From sequence record PP449093.1: a stretch of 64,000 nucleotides of DNA. One strand, 5' to 3'. Every line of letters starts with the position of its first letter. Positions within the stretch are counted from its first letter, which is position 1. Position numbers and translations under genes: made by a program. Of the stretch, positions 1,244 to 22,222 are shown one piece after another. Below the pieces are notes generated by a model. That model was not told the origin of the DNA and did not search any database. It saw only the letters and a list, made by a program, of their open reading frames with translations. Source of the DNA: Escherichia coli phage phiS.

Positions 1244-2746
1244 TTAGATCTCGATTGTTTTCGTGACATATTCGAATCGATCGGTGTTATAAATTTTTAT
1301 TCTTTCAAGCGCATGTTTAAGAGCATAATTAAGGTGGCTAAACTGTTTCTTAGCATTCTTGCTCTTTGTCTTAACCGCCAAATGATCGATAAGATCCCAG
1401 ACCGTTGCAATATCCTTAGAACCATGTTTACGCAATGCACGACCGATACTCTGACGAACGATAGTTGATTCCTTCACTGGATGACCGAAAATAACATGAT
1501 GCAAATTCTTAATTGAAACACCAGTAGAGAATACACCATAAGACGCAACACAAATGATCCCGGTGTCACCCTCCGCCATTTTCTTAAATTCATCACGTTC
1601 TTCTGTCTTAACTCCACCGTCAATATAATAAACCTTGTCGTGTACCTTCTGTAACGCGTCATACATAAGTTTTCCGTGCTTAGTATTGCGGAACATAAGG
1701 AATACGTTTTCGCCCTTCTTAGCGAGTTTTAGCGCCAAATTACAAGCAAACTTATTACGTCGTGGGTTAGACGTAATATACTTGATCTCTTCCGCATATT
1801 CTCTACCCTTAACCGCGCTACATTCCTCATCGGTATAACGAAGGAAAAGACAGTTAATTTTCAGTTTTGTCACCTGGCCTTCTTCCATCAGGCGGTCAAT
1901 ACTCACGATCTTAGAAATATCACCGAAAAGCCCGACATACTGCATCATGTTAGCTTTCCCGTCACGAGGGGAACCAGTCATGCCGATCTTAAATTGGCAA
2001 TGATCCATATCAGTAACGATGTTTAGCAGGTTTTTAGCAGTAGCCTTGTGACATTCATCAACAATTACCATCCCAAATTGTTGGAACCACTCACGAGGCT
2101 GTTTACATGCTGACTGCCACGTACTAACAACGATCAGGCGATCACCTACGTGTTTACTAGTACCGCTCATGATAGTATGAATTGCTTCATACGGAAACTG
2201 GCGATAATCAACAAAGTCATCACGCATTTGCAGCACTAGCGACGTGGTAGGAACGATGATCAGCACTTTCCCTTCGTAGTTCTCTAAGTACCAACGAGAC
2301 AACATACAAGCAATCGCAGATTTACCAGCGGACGTAGGCAAAACTAACATACGGCGTTTATGATGAATACCTTCAAAGACAGCCTTTGACTGATACCAAT
2401 GCGGGGTGATCCTGTTAGCACCGGAATATAATTCTAAGTCATTACACCATTTTGTAATTTCTTCTTCTGTAACTTGTTCTTTTTCGAATAAGCGAGGATC
2501 TACCCATACGCTATAGCCCATATTTTTAGCGAAGATTCCCACGGTTTTAGTTAGGCCGATTGGCAGCTTTCCGTTGTAATCTAAAAGACGAATACGCCCA
2601 TCCCAGCCGCCGTATTTTACTCGTTTTTGAAATCTTGCTCCCTCGACTTCAAAACTAAAATAATCTCGCATTTCTAATAAAATTGAATCGCTACATTCAA
2701 TTTGAACATGGGAATAGTTCAGAAAGTGAATTTTAATATCTTGCAT
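1244..2746 (-). CDS. uvsW: UvsW SF2 DNA helicase
   Basis: ORF track 1244..2761 starts at an upstream GTG; ATG at 2746 aligns with T4 UvsW N-terminus (MQDIKIHF); helicase motifs PTSAGKS and DECH present. Confidence 0.9.
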   Translation of the reverse strand: MQDIKIHFLNYSHVQIECSDSILLEMRDYFSFEVEGARFQKRVKYGGWDGRIRLLDYNGKLPIGLTKTVGIFAKNMGYSVWVDPRLFEKEQVTEEEITKWCNDLELYSGANRITPHWYQSKAVFEGIHHKRRMLVLPTSAGKSAIACMLSRWYLENYEGKVLIIVPTTSLVLQMRDDFVDYRQFPYEAIHTIMSGTSKHVGDRLIVVSTWQSACKQPREWFQQFGMVIVDECHKATAKNLLNIVTDMDHCQFKIGMTGSPRDGKANMMQYVGLFGDISKIVSIDRLMEEGQVTKLKINCLFLRYTDEECSAVKGREYAEEIKYITSNPRRNKFACNLALKLAKKGENVFLMFRNTKHGKLMYDALQKVHDKVYYIDGGVKTEERDEFKKMAEGDTGIICVASYGVFSTGVSIKNLHHVIFGHPVKESTIVRQSIGRALRKHGSKDIATVWDLIDHLAVKTKSKNAKKQFSHLNYALKHALERIKIYNTDRFEYVTKTIEI

Positions 2747-2782
2747 AGCGAATAGCCTCACTCAATAAATACAGTATACAAA

Positions 2783-2790
2783 TATTTATA
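2783..2790 (-). promoter_or_regulatory. T4-type late promoter TATAAATA upstream of uvsW
   Basis: Plus-strand tatttata = TATAAATA on minus strand, about 37 nt upstream of uvsW ATG. Confidence 0.55.
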
Positions 2791-7180: not shown

Positions 7181-8422
7181 TTAAGCGTTGTCAATCTCAA
7201 GCGGTGGCAGTTCGATTCCTAAAATGTAGGACATTTCTGAACGTCCAGCCATTTTACCCCAATCGTCACCCTTGATGACCTGGTGTTCTTCCTGATCAAC
7301 TTTTGATGTATATGGGTTGACAGAGAGTGAATAACGATTCATAATAGCTACATGATGCTGGAAGCTATTAGGGTCAATTACACTCTTATACGCGCCAGCG
7401 CCGTCGGCTTCTGTATATGGGGAGTAGAACAGAGAACCTACACTCTCCATATCACCGATCATGTGCTTACAACCAACGAGCATATAATCGAAAGGTGTTG
7501 TCGTGTCTGCGTACACTTCCAGACCGCAACGTAGACGACCTTCGCTTAGAGCATTGTCGGTTTCTTCCATCCATCCGGTAGATTGCAGGAGGCCAACCAC
7601 GCGAGAAGACGCCAAAACGTATGTACCAGCAAAGGAGGAAGTCCGCAACATTTGATTGCTCATTTCGCAAGCATAGCGGTAAAGTTCACGCGCTTGTGTT
7701 GGTGCATCCTGAACGCTAACGAGAGAAAGTATGCCATCAGGGGTGATCCCTTTAATTTTATAGCGAGATGATACAGTGATCAACTTCTGAATAATATCTT
7801 TGTTGATCTCTTCGGAAGCAACAGTAGCCAGAAGATCAATTACAGAGTTTTCAGAGTTGATTTGGCTTGCCTCAAGATCCTGCATTAATTCAGTGGTGAA
7901 CGAGGTTTTCAGTTTACGGGAACCTACATTAACCTGCCATTTATCAAACTGCATAGAGGTAGACGAAATTTCGGTGTTTTTATCTTCAAAGTATTCTACC
8001 GATGCACAATCGCTATAGAAACGAATTTTGTTTGTCATTATGCCTTTAAAGATTGCAGCTTCTGGAGTTTCGGCATCTTCACCGACTGTACCAGCGGTTA
8101 CAACTTCGTATACAACATCGTCTGATTTGAATAGTGCGCCTTCGTCATAAGATTTTTCTTTTGAAAACTCTTCAATCTCTGTGCGATCACCAGCCGCGCC
8201 ACCATAGGTTGTAGCAGTTCGGAAAGTCATCTGACCATCACGATTAAGATAACGTAGGCCGTACAATGCAGATACTGGTTGATCCGTTGGCTGGATTGCT
8301 ACCAGGTCAGAGAAAATCAGGTTGTTTACCGCGCGAGTTAATGATAATAGTTGCGGTCGCGCTGTCTGGTTAGCTACTGAGGAAGTAGATTCCCGCAACA
8401 GTTCAGTAAAAATATGAGTCAT
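7181..8422 (-). CDS. 24: head vertex protein gp24
   Basis: Paralog of gp23 fold; ATG at 8422 aligns with T4 gp24 N-terminus (ELLREST); track ORF extends to 8470 via a non-ATG start that would overlap the late promoter. Confidence 0.85.
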   Translation of the reverse strand: MTHIFTELLRESTSSVANQTARPQLLSLTRAVNNLIFSDLVAIQPTDQPVSALYGLRYLNRDGQMTFRTATTYGGAAGDRTEIEEFSKEKSYDEGALFKSDDVVYEVVTAGTVGEDAETPEAAIFKGIMTNKIRFYSDCASVEYFEDKNTEISSTSMQFDKWQVNVGSRKLKTSFTTELMQDLEASQINSENSVIDLLATVASEEINKDIIQKLITVSSRYKIKGITPDGILSLVSVQDAPTQARELYRYACEMSNQMLRTSSFAGTYVLASSRVVGLLQSTGWMEETDNALSEGRLRCGLEVYADTTTPFDYMLVGCKHMIGDMESVGSLFYSPYTEADGAGAYKSVIDPNSFQHHVAIMNRYSLSVNPYTSKVDQEEHQVIKGDDWGKMAGRSEMSYILGIELPPLEIDNA

Positions 8423-8459
8423 GTTTATGAATCCTGTATTTGCCTTAATGGATATATCA

Positions 8460-8467
8460 TATTTATA
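8460..8467 (-). promoter_or_regulatory. late promoter TATAAATA upstream of gene 24
   Basis: tatttata on plus strand, 38 nt upstream of the 8422 ATG. Confidence 0.55.
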
Positions 8468-8470
8468 CAA

Positions 8471-8496
8471 AAAGAAAAAGGAATCCGAAGGATTCC
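8471..8496 (-). terminator. rho-independent terminator (minus strand)
   Basis: ggaatcc-ttc-ggattcc hairpin followed by tttttcttttt on minus strand. Confidence 0.55.
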
Positions 8497-15052: not shown

Positions 15053-15613
15053 TTAATCTAATAATTCCCAGACGTCAATACTATTTTTAGTGTATTTCTG
15101 TCTATTGTTTTCCCATGTGATTATTTCTAAATTCTTTATGCCGCCTATGATATGCGGCGGGATGTGATTATCAAATCCATAACGTATAGAAACTTTATGG
15201 TCTAGTTGATATGCACCTTTTTTACCACACATTCCTAACTTATCGGCATTTTCCCATTTAGACCATATTGGCTTATGTTTTCGTGTCTCTGAATAAACAC
15301 GGGCTTTATATTCCGCCAATTTATCCTTATCAGTTTTCCATCTTGGGTGATTTTCACCGCTAACGTGAGGGCGATGTGTGTTTTTTGTTTTTAACCCAGA
15401 TTTGCGAGATGCATCTTTCTTTGCACAAGAATAACATAAATGAATATCCCTTTTCATTAAAATTTGAAACTGTCTTTCAAATTTAGACCCGCATTCATCG
15501 CAAATACAATTTACTTTTTTATTACTATTGATCGGTAGATTTTCTACAGGAACTTCAATAATAGAAAATGGTTTAACTTCATATCCTAAATGCTCTGTCC
15601 ATCTTTTAGACAT
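15053..15613 (-). CDS. HNH homing endonuclease inserted between genes 18 and 19
   Basis: Cys-pair zinc motifs (CICDECG, CYSC) and HNH core (QLDHKVSIRYGFDNH, WENN); ATG at 15613 (M49 of track ORF); track start 15757 is TTG overlapping gene 18. Confidence 0.7.
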   Translation of the reverse strand: MSKRWTEHLGYEVKPFSIIEVPVENLPINSNKKVNCICDECGSKFERQFQILMKRDIHLCYSCAKKDASRKSGLKTKNTHRPHVSGENHPRWKTDKDKLAEYKARVYSETRKHKPIWSKWENADKLGMCGKKGAYQLDHKVSIRYGFDNHIPPHIIGGIKNLEIITWENNRQKYTKNSIDVWELLD

Positions 15614-15672
15614 TGCTCTTACATTTATAAAGACCGGTTTAGTAGTAATCACATGGGAATCCTCGCTTGTTA

Positions 15673-15692
15673 ATGGGGGGAGTTGACCTCCC
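15673..15692 (-). other. intercistronic G-rich stem-loop (GGGGGAG...CTCCCCC)
   Basis: 7-bp inverted repeat between gene 18 stop and HNH gene. Confidence 0.4.
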
Positions 15693-15704
15693 CCTTCATT
15701 AATG

Positions 15705-17705
15705 TTATGCTTGGTTGGGTGGACCGATAATTTCGTCAAAATCAGCACCAGTTGCAACAGCCGTGAAGTTCAATAGAATGTAGTTAATCGATTTTGCTGG
15801 TTTGATGAACATACTGGCAACAAATTCGTTACGATCAATTACATCCGGCGTGTTATTCGTGGTGTCGCATTGTACTCGGAAGTCATAAATGCCGCCCAGA
15901 GAGCGAATCGTGCTGAGATATTGCGAAACCTCCATACGGAAGGAAGCGCGAGTAAAGTTATCGTTGTTTTCAAACAGTTTGTATTTGCTTGAATCGCCGA
16001 TATTCTTTTTCAGCATGTTAAACAGACGACGAACGTTAATGCGGTCAAACGGGCTAGGAACAGTCGTAGCGGTTTTATCACCCATCAGGATAAACCCTTC
16101 ACCACCAGCACCGATCACCGGGTTAATTGCGGACTGATACAGACGATCGCGGTGCGCTTTGCGAGGCTCAATTGCCAGTTTAACCACGTTCATGATCTGA
16201 CCACGGTTATAACCTGCCGGACTCATCCACGGCTGGGATACAGCATCAGTACGAGCGCACAGACCAGCAATATCAGCAGCCAACGGAACCCAACGGTTTA
16301 CGTCGTTGTATTTGTCATACTGATATTTGTAGTTACCATCAATAACCGCGTAAGTGGTATTAATGTTCATGTTGTTTTCATTATAGTTTCCTGAACCTTC
16401 GCGCCATGCAATCAGGTTATCAATTGCGGTAGTCACCGGAATATTAACAACAGTGCTACGCGGCGGAGAAACCATTACTAAGCAATCCTGACGCTCATCA
16501 CCGATGGAAACAGCATGTTTCTGTACGGTAGAGAACGCATCGCCTTCGCCAGCACATGCACCAGCGATCAACAGGTTTACGTGAATAGATTCACGTTCAG
16601 CAAACAGATCCCAACCTTGCATCATCGCACCGATGAACGGATCAGCACCAACTCCACCAGTCGTTGCTTCGTTAGCAGAAACACCACCAGCAAGAGAGAT
16701 AATACCACTGAAACCATCTACCCACCCTTGAGCGGTTGCATAGATGTACTGGCTAGAACCACGAGCAAAGAAGTCGTCCATGTAGATAGAATTGCCGTAT
16801 ACGTCTTTATCCCCTTTCAGAGTAGACAGTACATAGGATTCTACCACAACACCATCGCGACGAACAATAAATGCATATTGATTATCATTCTGCGGTGCAT
16901 ATGGAATCAGGTTGCGTGCTGCGGTGCGCTCGCCACCATAAGGATACATGGTCAGATCCGGTGCAGTATTCTTAAACGCACTACGTGCCAGAATTTCAAC
17001 TTCCAGAGAGTTACCAATCTCACCAGCATAGATCGCGCTTACCGCTGGCATGTCATATTTCTTGAGTTTAGTCAAGAAAGTTTGACTTGTGATATTGGCA
17101 CGGGAAGTTTCCAGATCCGTTAAGAGAAGACCGGAATCGGTAACAATTTTAGTTACTGACAGCGCCGCACTACCGTTACCTGACGAAGAAGTGAACTCTG
17201 CCGTCCAACCTCCATCAAGTTCTGGATATACACCGATTGCTTTAGCGTGAGCGATAATTTTACCAGTTGGGATAAATACGCCCTTAACTTTACCATCACC
17301 ATCAACTTTAGTTACTTTACCTGCCGTTTCAATCTCTTGACGGTTATGTTTAATCTTGATGGTATCGCCTACTTTATAGTTTGAACCTTCGTTTGTGATT
17401 TCAAACTCTACGTTACCAGCTAGGGCAGTTGCGTTTTTTGCTTTTTCTTTATTGAGTACACGAACAACACGCAGGTCATTGCCATACTGGAGGAAGTTAG
17501 CCCCGCTCATGAAATAGTCTGCGGTGTTATTATCCGGCTGACCAAATTTATTAACTAATTCAACTTCATTAGTTACTTGAATAATCTGGAAAGCTGGACC
17601 CCATTGGAATTTACCCACCAGTGCCGCGCGACCAGTCGCAGATTGCACAATGGTAGTGGAGAGAGTAGTTTCTTTCGTTTCGAAACCCGGTGATAATAGA
17701 GTCAT
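15705..17705 (-). CDS. 18: tail sheath protein gp18
   Basis: 666 aa; N-terminus MTLLSPG and overall similarity to T4 gp18. Confidence 0.95.
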   Translation of the reverse strand: MTLLSPGFETKETTLSTTIVQSATGRAALVGKFQWGPAFQIIQVTNEVELVNKFGQPDNNTADYFMSGANFLQYGNDLRVVRVLNKEKAKNATALAGNVEFEITNEGSNYKVGDTIKIKHNRQEIETAGKVTKVDGDGKVKGVFIPTGKIIAHAKAIGVYPELDGGWTAEFTSSSGNGSAALSVTKIVTDSGLLLTDLETSRANITSQTFLTKLKKYDMPAVSAIYAGEIGNSLEVEILARSAFKNTAPDLTMYPYGGERTAARNLIPYAPQNDNQYAFIVRRDGVVVESYVLSTLKGDKDVYGNSIYMDDFFARGSSQYIYATAQGWVDGFSGIISLAGGVSANEATTGGVGADPFIGAMMQGWDLFAERESIHVNLLIAGACAGEGDAFSTVQKHAVSIGDERQDCLVMVSPPRSTVVNIPVTTAIDNLIAWREGSGNYNENNMNINTTYAVIDGNYKYQYDKYNDVNRWVPLAADIAGLCARTDAVSQPWMSPAGYNRGQIMNVVKLAIEPRKAHRDRLYQSAINPVIGAGGEGFILMGDKTATTVPSPFDRINVRRLFNMLKKNIGDSSKYKLFENNDNFTRASFRMEVSQYLSTIRSLGGIYDFRVQCDTTNNTPDVIDRNEFVASMFIKPAKSINYILLNFTAVATGADFDEIIGPPNQA

Positions 17706-21358: not shown

Positions 21359-22222
21359 TTAAAATTCTCTTACAATACGTGGACCCGGTGGAGTCGGTGC
21401 AACTGGTATTGGAATATCACTAGAATATGATTCTTTGATAGTTCCGTCCCATTCTTCTTGCTCGACGTCACGTTTAACGACCTCGTGATCCACAGATTCA
21501 AAATTACCGCTAGGATTTAATTCACGAGAATTAGCATGAAAATCAAGATAAATCGTTCTGATTTCCCCCTTAACGTCGGTAGCTGGAGGATAGATAAACC
21601 CGATGAACTCAAACATAATGGTCCACTCAAGACGACGACGAGAAAACTTATCTTCGCCTACCTGTTCATCTGGAGTAATAGAACTAATTGTGACCTGAAT
21701 ATCTCGATCAATCCATACATCATTACCGTGTAGTTCTTTAATCTTACAGTTAAAATGAGGCTGGAAGTAAGGAAGAATCTGTTCAATTATCTGAAACATA
21801 TCATCTTCGTTACGTGTATAAATCCCCAGCTCGAAGGTAAACTTATATGGTACAGGATTATATTGTGTCACACTCCTGATACCATCAGCCGTATATTTTG
21901 GTACTGTCTTATTTGCAATATTTGTTTTAAAGTTCTGGGCGTATGTCATATCAATCAAAGAAAGACACATACGAGGTAAAATAGTTTCTACCTTTGCTAC
22001 GTCTTCCTCGCTTAAGATATTGTTATATTTGTCCAGACTCATCATGAATTTTTCTTTCTTTGCGTAGGTGATAGGAACTTTAATAAAACGCTCACCGTCA
22101 CTACGCACCCTTTTAATTTGTACGCCGGAGAATAAATTACCCAGCAATACAATATATCTTCTAATTGACGAATTATAGTGCCAACCGAACATTTGACCCC
22201 CTTGTTTATGAGTATTTATCAA
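21359..22222 (-). CDS. 15: tail sheath stabilizer / tail completion protein gp15
   Basis: 287 aa; size and synteny. Confidence 0.8.

What the first reader, a model, noticed from the sequence alone, without database searches (positions are those of the whole stretch)
8422..8470. Late-promoter positions indicate that several ORF-track starts are over-extended
The ORF track opens genes 24, uvsW and the 18/19 HNH gene at non-ATG codons (codon arithmetic from the translations plus direct reading). For gene 24 the TATAAATA late promoter (8460-8467) lies inside the proposed 5' extension, and the ATG at 8422 aligns with the T4 gp24 N-terminus; the same logic gives uvsW start 2746 and HNH start 15613. 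This affects overlap and coupling interpretations.
Basis: partly seen in the sequence, partly recalled or inferred. Interest (0 to 1): 0.2.

Follow-up and report, generated by a model that had tools for sequence, protein, structure and literature searches.

The report
Gene-start corrections: two right, one wrong
In this RB49-like, T4-type phage, three long reading frames in a mechanical ORF list do start too far upstream; the proposed new starts for the capsid-vertex gene 24 and the helicase uvsW are correct and already in public annotation, but the small nuclease-like gene between the tail sheath and tail tube genes starts at a conserved GTG, not at the ATG proposed.

Summary
The window is a Krischvirus (RB49/JSE group), and its proteins match E. 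coli phage phiS exactly.

**Gene 24.** TATAAATA (8467-8460, minus strand) lies inside the TTG-8470 extension. ATG 8422 matches the T4 gp24 N-terminus and the 413-aa public annotation. The box follows an intrinsic terminator, and RB49's equivalent was already predicted as a late promoter.

**uvsW.** ATG 2746 is right: it fits T4 UvsW, a strong Shine-Dalgarno (SD) site and the 500-aa annotation. The box (2790-2783) lies upstream of both candidate starts.

**The 18/19 gene.** TTG 15757 is over-extended, but ATG 15613 is not the start. GTG 15652 is, on five grounds:
- It has a GAGGA SD 7 nt upstream.
- 33 homologues share the MII(S/T)K N-terminus, and the nearest two have His where the window has Met14.
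- PHROG 5104 aligns from residue 1.
- phiS annotates 199 aa.
- The structure model places a confident beta-strand in residues 6-10.

"TATAAATG" at 15629-15622 is coding sequence.

This is an ORF-listing artefact plus known T4-type late promoters. It is ordinary and low interest. The rule "non-ATG means over-extended" fails in one of three cases.

The parts
7181..8422 (-). Gene 24 (capsid vertex protein), true CDS from ATG 8422, 413 aa
   Evidence: T4 gp24 (1yue) E 3.6e-108, with T4 residue 5 aligned to residue 22 of the long form. Same 1242-nt length as in JSE, MIZ4 and RB49. Exact 413-aa protein is phiS WWV92345.1.
8423..8470 (-). Spurious 16-codon 5' extension of the mechanical gene 24 ORF (TTG 8470)
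   Evidence: Contains the late-promoter box. The TTG is the last part of the terminator T-run. SD is no better than background. The equivalent frame in T4 and in CfP1 has in-frame stops. The 429-aa form is not in the public collection.
8460..8467 (-). T4-type late promoter box TATAAATA for gene 24; predicted transcription start about 8454, 32-nt leader
   Evidence: Exact match. Lies 37 nt before the ATG, within the 27-37 nt range of all nine boxes. The RB49 equivalent (95560-95567) lies inside late promoter Pl:95534-95576 predicted by Nolan 2006. T4 gene 24 has TATAAATA 27 nt before its ATG. The transcription start is inferred from the -13 to -6 rule, not mapped.
8471..8496 (-). Intrinsic terminator (GGAATCC-TTC-GGATTCC plus T-run) ending the upstream small-ORF unit, directly abutting the gene 24 promoter
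   Evidence: Terminator scan: 1 found against 0.1 expected. Phage G2248 has a T-to-G and T-to-C double change that adds a G-C pair to the stem, and its record annotates a terminator there.
1244..2746 (-). uvsW helicase, true CDS from ATG 2746, 500 aa
   Evidence: T4 UvsW (2oca) E 1.5e-195, with T4 residue 2 aligned to residue 8 of the long form. SD -8.4 kcal/mol at 8 nt, in the top 0.8% of random sites. 1503 nt in JSE and MIZ4. phiS WWV92337.1 is 500 aa.
2747..2761 (-). Spurious 5-codon extension of uvsW (GTG 2761); the GTG overlaps the SD (GAGG 2759-2756) of the real start
   Evidence: No SD for the GTG (+0.9 kcal/mol). The 505-aa form is not in the collection.
2783..2790 (-). Late promoter box TATAAATA for uvsW, upstream of both candidate starts (36 nt before ATG 2746, 21 nt before GTG 2761)
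   Evidence: Invariant in JSE and MIZ4.
15053..15652 (-). Gene between 18 and 19 (zinc-ribbon plus HNH-like protein, VR7 gp19.1 / PHROG 5104 family), true CDS from GTG 15652, 199 aa
   Evidence: Homologue N-termini. GTG ATT ATT starts in VR7 and MLF4. Start position conserved in 23 of 23 loci. PHROG 5104 profile position 1 aligns to residue 1. phiS WWV92354.1 is 199 aa. AlphaFold pLDDT is about 90 for residues 1-10, with a strand at 6-10.
15660..15664 (-). Shine-Dalgarno GAGGA, 7 nt before GTG 15652
   Evidence: -7.6 kcal/mol, in the top 1.4% of random sites. Unpaired in the predicted RNA fold.
15670..15702 (-). Stable hairpin (UUAAUG-AA-GGGGGAG-loop-CUCCCCC-CAUUAA) at the 5' edge of the inserted cassette, just after the gene 18 stop; no T-run follows
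   Evidence: Fold -32 kcal/mol, z -2.8. Part of the DNA absent from JSE and MIZ4.
15611..15613 (-).
   Evidence: The two nearest homologues have His here and no other homologue has Met. SD -1.7 kcal/mol at 2 nt.
15622..15629 (-). TATAAATG, a chance near-match to the late box lying inside the coding sequence (codons F-I-N-V)
   Evidence: Ends 8 nt before ATG 15613, against 27-37 nt for real boxes. No such motif at this place in VR7 or MLF4.
15653..15757 (-). Spurious extension of the mechanical 18/19 ORF, running through the hairpin into the 3' end of gene 18
   Evidence: The 234-aa form is not in the collection.

Best explanation
The three long ORFs are by-products of a rule that opens an ORF at the first ATG, GTG or TTG after a stop codon. 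There is nothing biological in the extensions.

**Gene 24 and uvsW.** Both are ordinary T4-type late genes. A TATAAATA box should set a transcription start about 6 nt downstream of itself, near 8454 and 2777. A leader of about 30 nt carries the SD, and translation begins at ATG 8422 and ATG 2746. At gene 24 the box follows an intrinsic terminator directly, and the TTG that opens the mechanical ORF is the tail of the terminator's T-run. The frame stays open only because this phage reads the box as TAT-AAA-TA(T); T4 reads its own box as T-TAT-AAA-TAG, with a stop.

**The 18/19 gene.** This is a cassette inserted between genes 18 and 19. It has no late-promoter box of its own and brings a hairpin and a GAGGA SD. 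It is presumably transcribed from the gene 18 late promoter at 17744-17737, and it is translated from GTG 15652.

**Shown:** coordinates, homology, conserved N-termini, SD strengths, box placement, the insertion boundaries and the public annotation.

**Inferred:** the transcription starts, actual promoter use, and read-through into the cassette.
For: **Gene 24.**

**uvsW.**

**Box placement.** 9 of 9 boxes lie 27-37 nt upstream of an ATG of a real ORF.

**The 18/19 gene.**
- The insertion is absent from JSE and MIZ4 and from all 58 Krischvirus records.
- VR7 gp19.1 and the MLF4 homologue lie between genes 18 and 19 and start with GTG at the aligned codon.
- 33 homologues share MII(S/T)K, and Ile2 is invariant.
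- In 23 loci whose match reaches residue 1, the aligned codon is always a start codon: ATG in 19 and GTG in 4.
- PHROG 5104 matches from residue 1.
- SD is -7.6 against -1.7 kcal/mol.
- The structure model has residues 1-10 at pLDDT about 90, with a strand at 6-10.
- The deposited phiS protein is 199 aa, and the 186-aa form was called only on contigs of 1,199 nt or less.
Against: - No transcript or N-terminal data exist for this phage. Public annotations come from gene callers, so they are not independent experimental evidence.
- The leaders are identical in JSE, MIZ4 and RB49, so close relatives give no substitution test of the extensions.
- The gene 24 SD is weak (-4.1 kcal/mol) and barely better than that of TTG 8470 (-3.3 kcal/mol). 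That case therefore rests on the promoter and on homology.
- Read-through from upstream would put TTG 8470 and GTG 2761 on some transcripts.
Confidence: 0.9

Rival explanations
1. One reading: all three genes start at the first ATG after a TATAAAT-like string, so the 18/19 gene starts at ATG 15613 (186 aa), driven by a late promoter at 15629-15622.
For: ATG is the commoner start codon. A TATAAAT string precedes it. A 186-aa form was called by gene finders on six short contigs.
Against: - The box is TATAAATG, not the consensus. It ends 8 nt before the ATG, so the -13 to -6 rule gives a leader of about 3 nt with no SD. Real boxes lie 27-37 nt upstream.
- SD is -1.7 kcal/mol at 2 nt.
- The nearest homologues have His at this position, and the 13 residues upstream are conserved.
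- A start here would remove a confidently modelled beta-strand.
Confidence: 0.05
2. Dual initiation in the 18/19 gene: GTG 15652 gives the full protein and ATG 15613 a minor, N-terminally shortened isoform. T4 annotates such internal starts for 17', 21' and 26'.
For: Internal in-frame starts are annotated in T4. An in-frame ATG exists, and close relatives of the cassette keep Met14.
Against: There is no usable SD. Met14 is not conserved outside the closest cluster. The shortened product would lack strand 1 of the N-terminal domain.
Confidence: 0.08
3. The long forms are real: read-through transcripts from upstream late units are translated from TTG 8470, GTG 2761 or TTG 15757, giving N-terminally extended proteins.
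For: The frames are open. Terminators are rarely complete, so read-through RNA carrying TTG 8470 probably exists. GTG 2761 lies on the predicted uvsW transcript.
Against: - None of the three has an SD.
- The extensions have no counterpart in T4 gp24 or UvsW.
- The equivalent frames in T4 and CfP1 are closed by stops.
- TTG 15757 lies inside gene 18, and the frame runs through a -32 kcal/mol hairpin region.
- None of the long forms is in a collection of 15 billion proteins.
Confidence: 0.02

Closest known systems
T4 late promoters (TATAAATA, gp55/gp33/gp45-dependent), in particular the one before T4 gene 24 and the late promoter predicted at RB49 95534-95576
   Same: Exact 8-bp box, upstream of the orthologous late gene and a short leader away from the ATG: 37 nt here and in RB49, 27 nt in T4. 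The RB49 site was already listed by Nolan et al. 2006.
   Different: Nothing of substance. The reading frame of the box relative to gene 24 differs, which is why an open extension exists here and not in T4.
T4 gp24 and T4 UvsW (PDB 1yue, 2oca)
   Same: Full-length homologues. The N-termini coincide to within one residue when the ATG starts are used. The LLRE|S site, which corresponds to the start of mature T4 gp24 (5vf3 chain a begins at residue 28 of the long form), is conserved.
   Different: One extra residue at each N-terminus. In T4, uvsW directly follows segE and has no box within 88 nt upstream.
VR7 gp19.1 / T6 gp19.1 family (PHROG 5104, function unknown)
   Same: Same position between the tail sheath and tail tube genes. 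About 50% identity over the whole length. Same GTG ATT start preceded by an A/GAGGA SD, with an upstream hairpin.
   Different: VR7 has an exact TATAAATA in the loop of its upstream hairpin; the window has none. The window carries an ATG-TGA mini-frame overlapping the GTG.
Free-standing HNH homing endonucleases of T-even phages (mobA-E), and the seg43(25) arrangement of a strong hairpin just upstream of a free ribosome-binding site
   Different: No Pfam or NCBIfam HNH hit. The domain order is zinc ribbon first and nuclease last, whereas the T4 mob proteins are described as an HNH domain fused to a C-terminal region. No activity data exist.

Membership tests
T4-type late promoter | 8-bp box TATAAATA (T at -13 may vary) | tested here: met
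   Exact matches at 8467-8460 and 2790-2783. The site at 15629-15622 is TATAAATG, with a mismatch at -6.
T4-type late promoter | Lies 5' of an orthologue of a T4 late gene, a short leader away from its start | tested here: met
   9 of 9 boxes lie 27-37 nt before an ATG of an ORF; the chance per site is 0.041. Not met for the site at 15629-15622, which ends 8 nt before the ATG and lies inside a CDS.
T4-type late promoter | Transcription starts about 6 nt downstream of the box, late in infection, dependent on gp55, gp33 and gp45 | not testable with these tools
   Needs primer extension, 5' RACE or RNA-seq of infected cells. Positions 8454 and 2777 are inferred from the -13 to -6 rule.
gp24 capsid vertex protein | Full-length homology to T4 gp24, including the N-terminal propeptide and its cleavage site | tested here: met
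   E 3.6e-108 over residues 22-427 of the long form. Mature T4 gp24 chains begin at residue 28 of the long form, after the conserved LLRE.
UvsW helicase | Full-length homology to T4 UvsW | tested here: met
   E 1.5e-195, with T4 residues 2-501 aligned to residues 8-504 of the long form.
HNH (beta-beta-alpha-metal) nuclease | Match to a curated HNH sequence model | tested here: not met
   Pfam gives only weak zinc-ribbon hits below cut-off. NCBIfam gives nothing. PHROG HNH and homing-endonuclease families hit only at E 0.0015-0.003, in the zinc-ribbon part.
HNH (beta-beta-alpha-metal) nuclease | Conserved His...Asn...Asn catalytic motif | tested here: met
   D151, H152, N174 and N183 are invariant in 33 homologues, as are C51, C54 and C73; C76 is nearly invariant.
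HNH (beta-beta-alpha-metal) nuclease | Fold similarity to solved HNH nucleases | tested here: inconclusive
Free-standing homing endonuclease gene | Intergenic cassette present or absent among close relatives at one fixed site | tested here: met
   Absent from all 58 Krischvirus records and precisely replaced by about 25 nt in JSE and MIZ4. In all 25 loci whose match reaches residue 1 the homologue lies next to a gp18 homologue, with gp19 on the other side in 24, even where gp18 is only 33-50% identical.
Free-standing homing endonuclease gene | Cleaves the cassette-less allele and is over-inherited in mixed infection | not testable with these tools
   Needs enzyme assays and phage crosses. The only hint is in the second-to-last 100-nt block of gene 18, just upstream of the insertion: 87-88% identity to JSE and MIZ4, which are 99% identical to each other there.

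The most novel reading that the evidence does not exclude
The reading frame between genes 18 and 19 may belong to an uncharacterised family of zinc-ribbon plus HNH-like proteins (PHROG 5104, no Pfam model). The family is found almost only in the gap between the tail sheath and tail tube genes, across very distant T4-like phages. It could be a site-specific homing endonuclease lineage tied to that junction. In its enterobacterial branch, expression may be throttled by a conserved GTG start and an upstream hairpin. The start-site question raised by the finding is then the first clue to how the cassette is kept at low expression inside a very highly expressed late operon.
Probability: 0.45. Interest if true: 0.3.

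Novelty: already known. Interest (0 to 1): 0.08.

Why it matters
It matters only for annotation hygiene. Taking mechanical ORFs at face value would invent a 53-nt overlap between gene 18 and its neighbour, and would add N-terminal tails to a capsid protein and a helicase.

The useful lesson is the counter-example. Moving every non-ATG start to the next ATG would remove 13 conserved residues, including a modelled beta-strand, from the 18/19 protein. Promoter position, SD strength and homologue N-termini have to be used together.

For gene 24 there is a further point. Prohead maturation removes the N-terminus of T4 gp24, and the cleavage site is conserved here. Virion proteomics therefore cannot settle the start.

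Tried and rejected
- **Raw enrichment of TATAAATA.** Not significant. I replaced it with a placement test.
- **Substitution pattern in the extensions among close relatives.** Uninformative, because the leaders of JSE, MIZ4 and RB49 are identical to the window. The distant DNA search reaches other genera only inside the CDS. I therefore used the frames of T4 and CfP1.
- **SD strength for gene 24.** Does not discriminate: -4.1 against -3.3 kcal/mol.
- **An RNA hairpin hiding the ribosome-binding site of the 18/19 gene, as for mobE or I-TevI.** Rejected for this phage, because the predicted fold leaves the SD and GTG unpaired.
- **Desplats et al. 2002 on RB49 late promoters (PMC135041).** Not held, so experimental mapping in RB49 could not be checked.
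- **Literature search for gp19.1.** Found nothing specific.

Full report
**What the window is.** The region is a T4-type phage of the genus Krischvirus (RB49/JSE group). A 2-kb query around the finding matches 58 phage records, 53 of them at 95-99% identity. The three proteins discussed are exact matches to deposited proteins of Escherichia coli phage phiS. On the minus strand lie uvsW, gene 24, genes 23 to 19, an extra gene, and genes 18 and 17.

**Checking the observation.** The mechanical ORF list opens three real genes at non-ATG codons: 7181..8470 at TTG, 1244..2761 at GTG, and 15053..15757 at TTG.
- TATAAATA lies at 8467-8460 on the minus strand.
- ATG 8422 is 16 codons inside TTG 8470.
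- ATG 2746 is 5 codons inside GTG 2761.
- ATG 15613 is 48 codons inside TTG 15757.

**Are the boxes more than chance?**
- The count alone is not significant: 9 exact copies against 5.9 +/- 2.4 in shuffles, with 12 of 100 shuffles reaching 9.
- The placement is. Every one of the nine copies lies 27-37 nt upstream of an ATG that opens an ORF of at least 65 aa on the same strand. These ORFs include genes 23, 22, 18, 24 and uvsW. Only 4.1% of all positions in the window meet that criterion for ORFs of at least 60 aa, which gives about 3e-13 for nine of nine.
- T4 late promoters are this 8-bp box at -13 to -6 from the transcription start, and the same motif was found before late-gene orthologues in RB49 (Nolan et al. 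2006, PMC1524935).

**Gene 24.**
- The box at 8467-8460 predicts a start near 8454. TTG 8470 is therefore upstream of the late transcript, and ATG 8422 has a 32-nt leader.
- T4 gp24 residue 5 aligns with residue 22 of the long form, so the ATG form (413 aa) matches T4 to within one residue.
- JSE, MIZ4 and RB49 annotate the same 1242-nt gene.
- The 413-aa protein is in the public collection and the 429-aa form is not.
- RB49's equivalent box (95560-95567) lies inside a late promoter already predicted by Nolan et al. (Pl:95534-95576).
- T4 gene 24 has TATAAATA 27 nt before its ATG.
- Directly upstream of the box is an intrinsic terminator, GGAATCC-TTC-GGATTCC plus a T-run. Phage G2248 carries a double change that adds a G-C pair to its stem. 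The TTG that opens the mechanical ORF is the end of that T-run.
- The extension is a frame accident. In T4 and in Citrobacter phage CfP1 the frame upstream of the ATG is closed by stops in or next to the box.
- SD strength does not discriminate here, at -4.1 against -3.3 kcal/mol.

**uvsW.**
- ATG 2746 is right. T4 UvsW residue 2 aligns with residue 8 of the long form.
- The SD is strong, -8.4 kcal/mol at 8 nt, in the top 0.8% of random sites. GTG 2761 has none, at +0.9 kcal/mol.
- All relatives annotate 1503 nt, or 500 aa.
The box at 2790-2783 lies upstream of both candidates, and the predicted start near 2777 leaves GTG 2761 on the transcript. The conclusion is right for other reasons.

**The gene between 18 and 19.**
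- *An insertion.* The gene sits on DNA that begins right after the gene 18 stop (15707-15705). It replaces about 25 nt found in JSE and MIZ4. None of the 58 Krischvirus records has it.
- *The mechanical start is spurious.* TTG 15757 lies inside gene 18.
VR7 gp19.1 and the MLF4 homologue also lie between genes 18 and 19. Their annotated starts are GTG ATT ATT, aligned exactly to the window's GTG 15652. They have His where the window has Met14.
- *Conserved N-terminus.* An alignment of 33 homologues shows MII(S/T)K.V at the N-terminus, with Ile2 invariant. Several over-called metagenomic proteins show Val at that position, which means a GTG codon.
- *Start codon across loci.* In 23 loci whose match reaches residue 1, the aligned codon is always a start codon: ATG in 19 and GTG in 4.
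- *Other support for GTG 15652.* PHROG 5104 aligns from residue 1. The SD (GAGGA, 7 nt) scores -7.6 kcal/mol, against -1.7 kcal/mol at 2 nt for ATG 15613. An AlphaFold model (mean pLDDT 88.9) puts residues 1-10 at about 90, with a strand at 6-10 that the shorter form would lose. The phiS record has the 199-aa form, and the 186-aa form was called only on contigs of 1,199 nt or less.
- *The near-box.* TATAAATG at 15629-15622 encodes F-I-N-V and ends 8 nt before ATG 15613, far outside the 27-37 nt range.
- *Upstream hairpin.* A stable hairpin (15702-15670) precedes the SD but leaves it unpaired in the predicted fold.
- *Likely transcription.* The cassette has no box of its own, so it is probably read from the gene 18 late promoter (17744-17737). 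Several T4 free-standing endonuclease genes are likewise promoter-less cassettes (Edgell et al. 2010, PMC2988022). This step is inferred.

**What the 18/19 protein is.**
Curated sequence models do not support that.
- The motif D151-H152...N174...N183 is invariant, and so is the C51/C54/C73 part of a four-cysteine cluster; C76 is nearly invariant.
- "HNH-like" is therefore a reasonable but unproven label.

**Comparison with what is known.** The promoters, the two ATG starts and the GTG start are all already in the literature or in public records. The finding is an artefact of ORF listing, and its correction is right in two cases and wrong in one. The overlap point stands. The apparent 53-nt overlap with gene 18 is not real, and the true arrangement is a 52-nt spacer with a hairpin.

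The start of mature T4 gp24 (5vf3 chain a) corresponds to residue 28 of the long form, just after a conserved LLRE. RB49's record also notes cleavage by gp21. N-terminal peptides from virions therefore cannot distinguish the two gene 24 starts.

**Verdict.** This is ordinary, and novelty is "already known". The one side observation worth keeping is the strict placement of the PHROG 5104 family between tail sheath and tail tube genes across very distant T4-like phages.

Noticed in passing
window 15053-15704; loci L003, L004, L009-L036: The 18/19 gene family (PHROG 5104, no Pfam model) keeps one genomic position. In all 25 loci whose match reaches residue 1 the homologue lies next to a tail sheath (gp18) homologue, and in 24 of them the tail tube (gp19) homologue is on the other side. 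This holds even where gp18 is only 33-50% identical to the window's. One locus (L016) has it inverted. It is absent from T4 and from all 58 Krischvirus records. This looks like a homing endonuclease lineage tied to that junction.
   Followed up: partly
window 15805-15904 (second-to-last 100-nt block of gene 18, upstream of the insertion): Identity to JSE and MIZ4 drops to 87-88% in this 100-nt block of gene 18, about 100-200 nt upstream of the cassette. JSE and MIZ4 are 99% identical to each other there, and gene 19 is 98-100% identical throughout. The two amino-acid differences in the last 60 residues (L/M, P/A) lie in the final ~75 nt, whose DNA identity was not measured separately because the last bin holds only a few bases. 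This may be a co-conversion or target-immunity tract. However, gene 18 has other mosaic patches (68-74%), so it is not conclusive.
   Followed up: partly
window 15649-15654 (-): An ATG-TGA mini-frame (ATG 15654, TGA 15651-15649) overlaps the GTG 15652 start and shares its SD at 5-nt spacing. VR7 and MLF4 have no such ATG. It might compete with initiation at the GTG.
   Followed up: no
L003 1468-1500 (phage VR7, upstream of gp19.1): In VR7 the homologous gene is preceded by a hairpin (GCGCGTAT...ATACGCGC) with an exact TATAAATA in its loop, 17 nt before the GTG. This resembles the promoter-in-hairpin arrangement described for mobE and I-TevI. The window's cassette lacks the box.
   Followed up: no
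window 22190-22222 (-): A fourth case of the same artefact. ORF 21359..22222 opens at TTG 22222, which overlaps the TGA stop of the upstream gene. A variant box GATAAATA (22220-22213) lies inside the extension. An in-frame ATG at 22192 follows a strong AAGGGGG SD. Several other plus-strand ORFs between 41.9 and 63.6 kb also open at GTG or TTG and were not checked.
   Followed up: partly
window 2764-2790, both strands: The uvsW box (2790-2783, minus strand) overlaps by 2 nt a one-mismatch box TACAAATA (2777-2784, plus strand). That box lies 32 nt before the ATG of the divergent inh gene (2817). A second variant, AATAAATA, lies at 2764-2771. These look like back-to-back divergent late promoters, like the paired sites listed for RB49 and RB69 by Nolan et al..
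   Followed up: no
window 8480-8496 (-); L005 403-421: The terminator hairpin before the gene 24 promoter shows a two-sided change in phage G2248 (T to G and T to C) that adds a G-C pair. This supports a real structure.
   Followed up: partly
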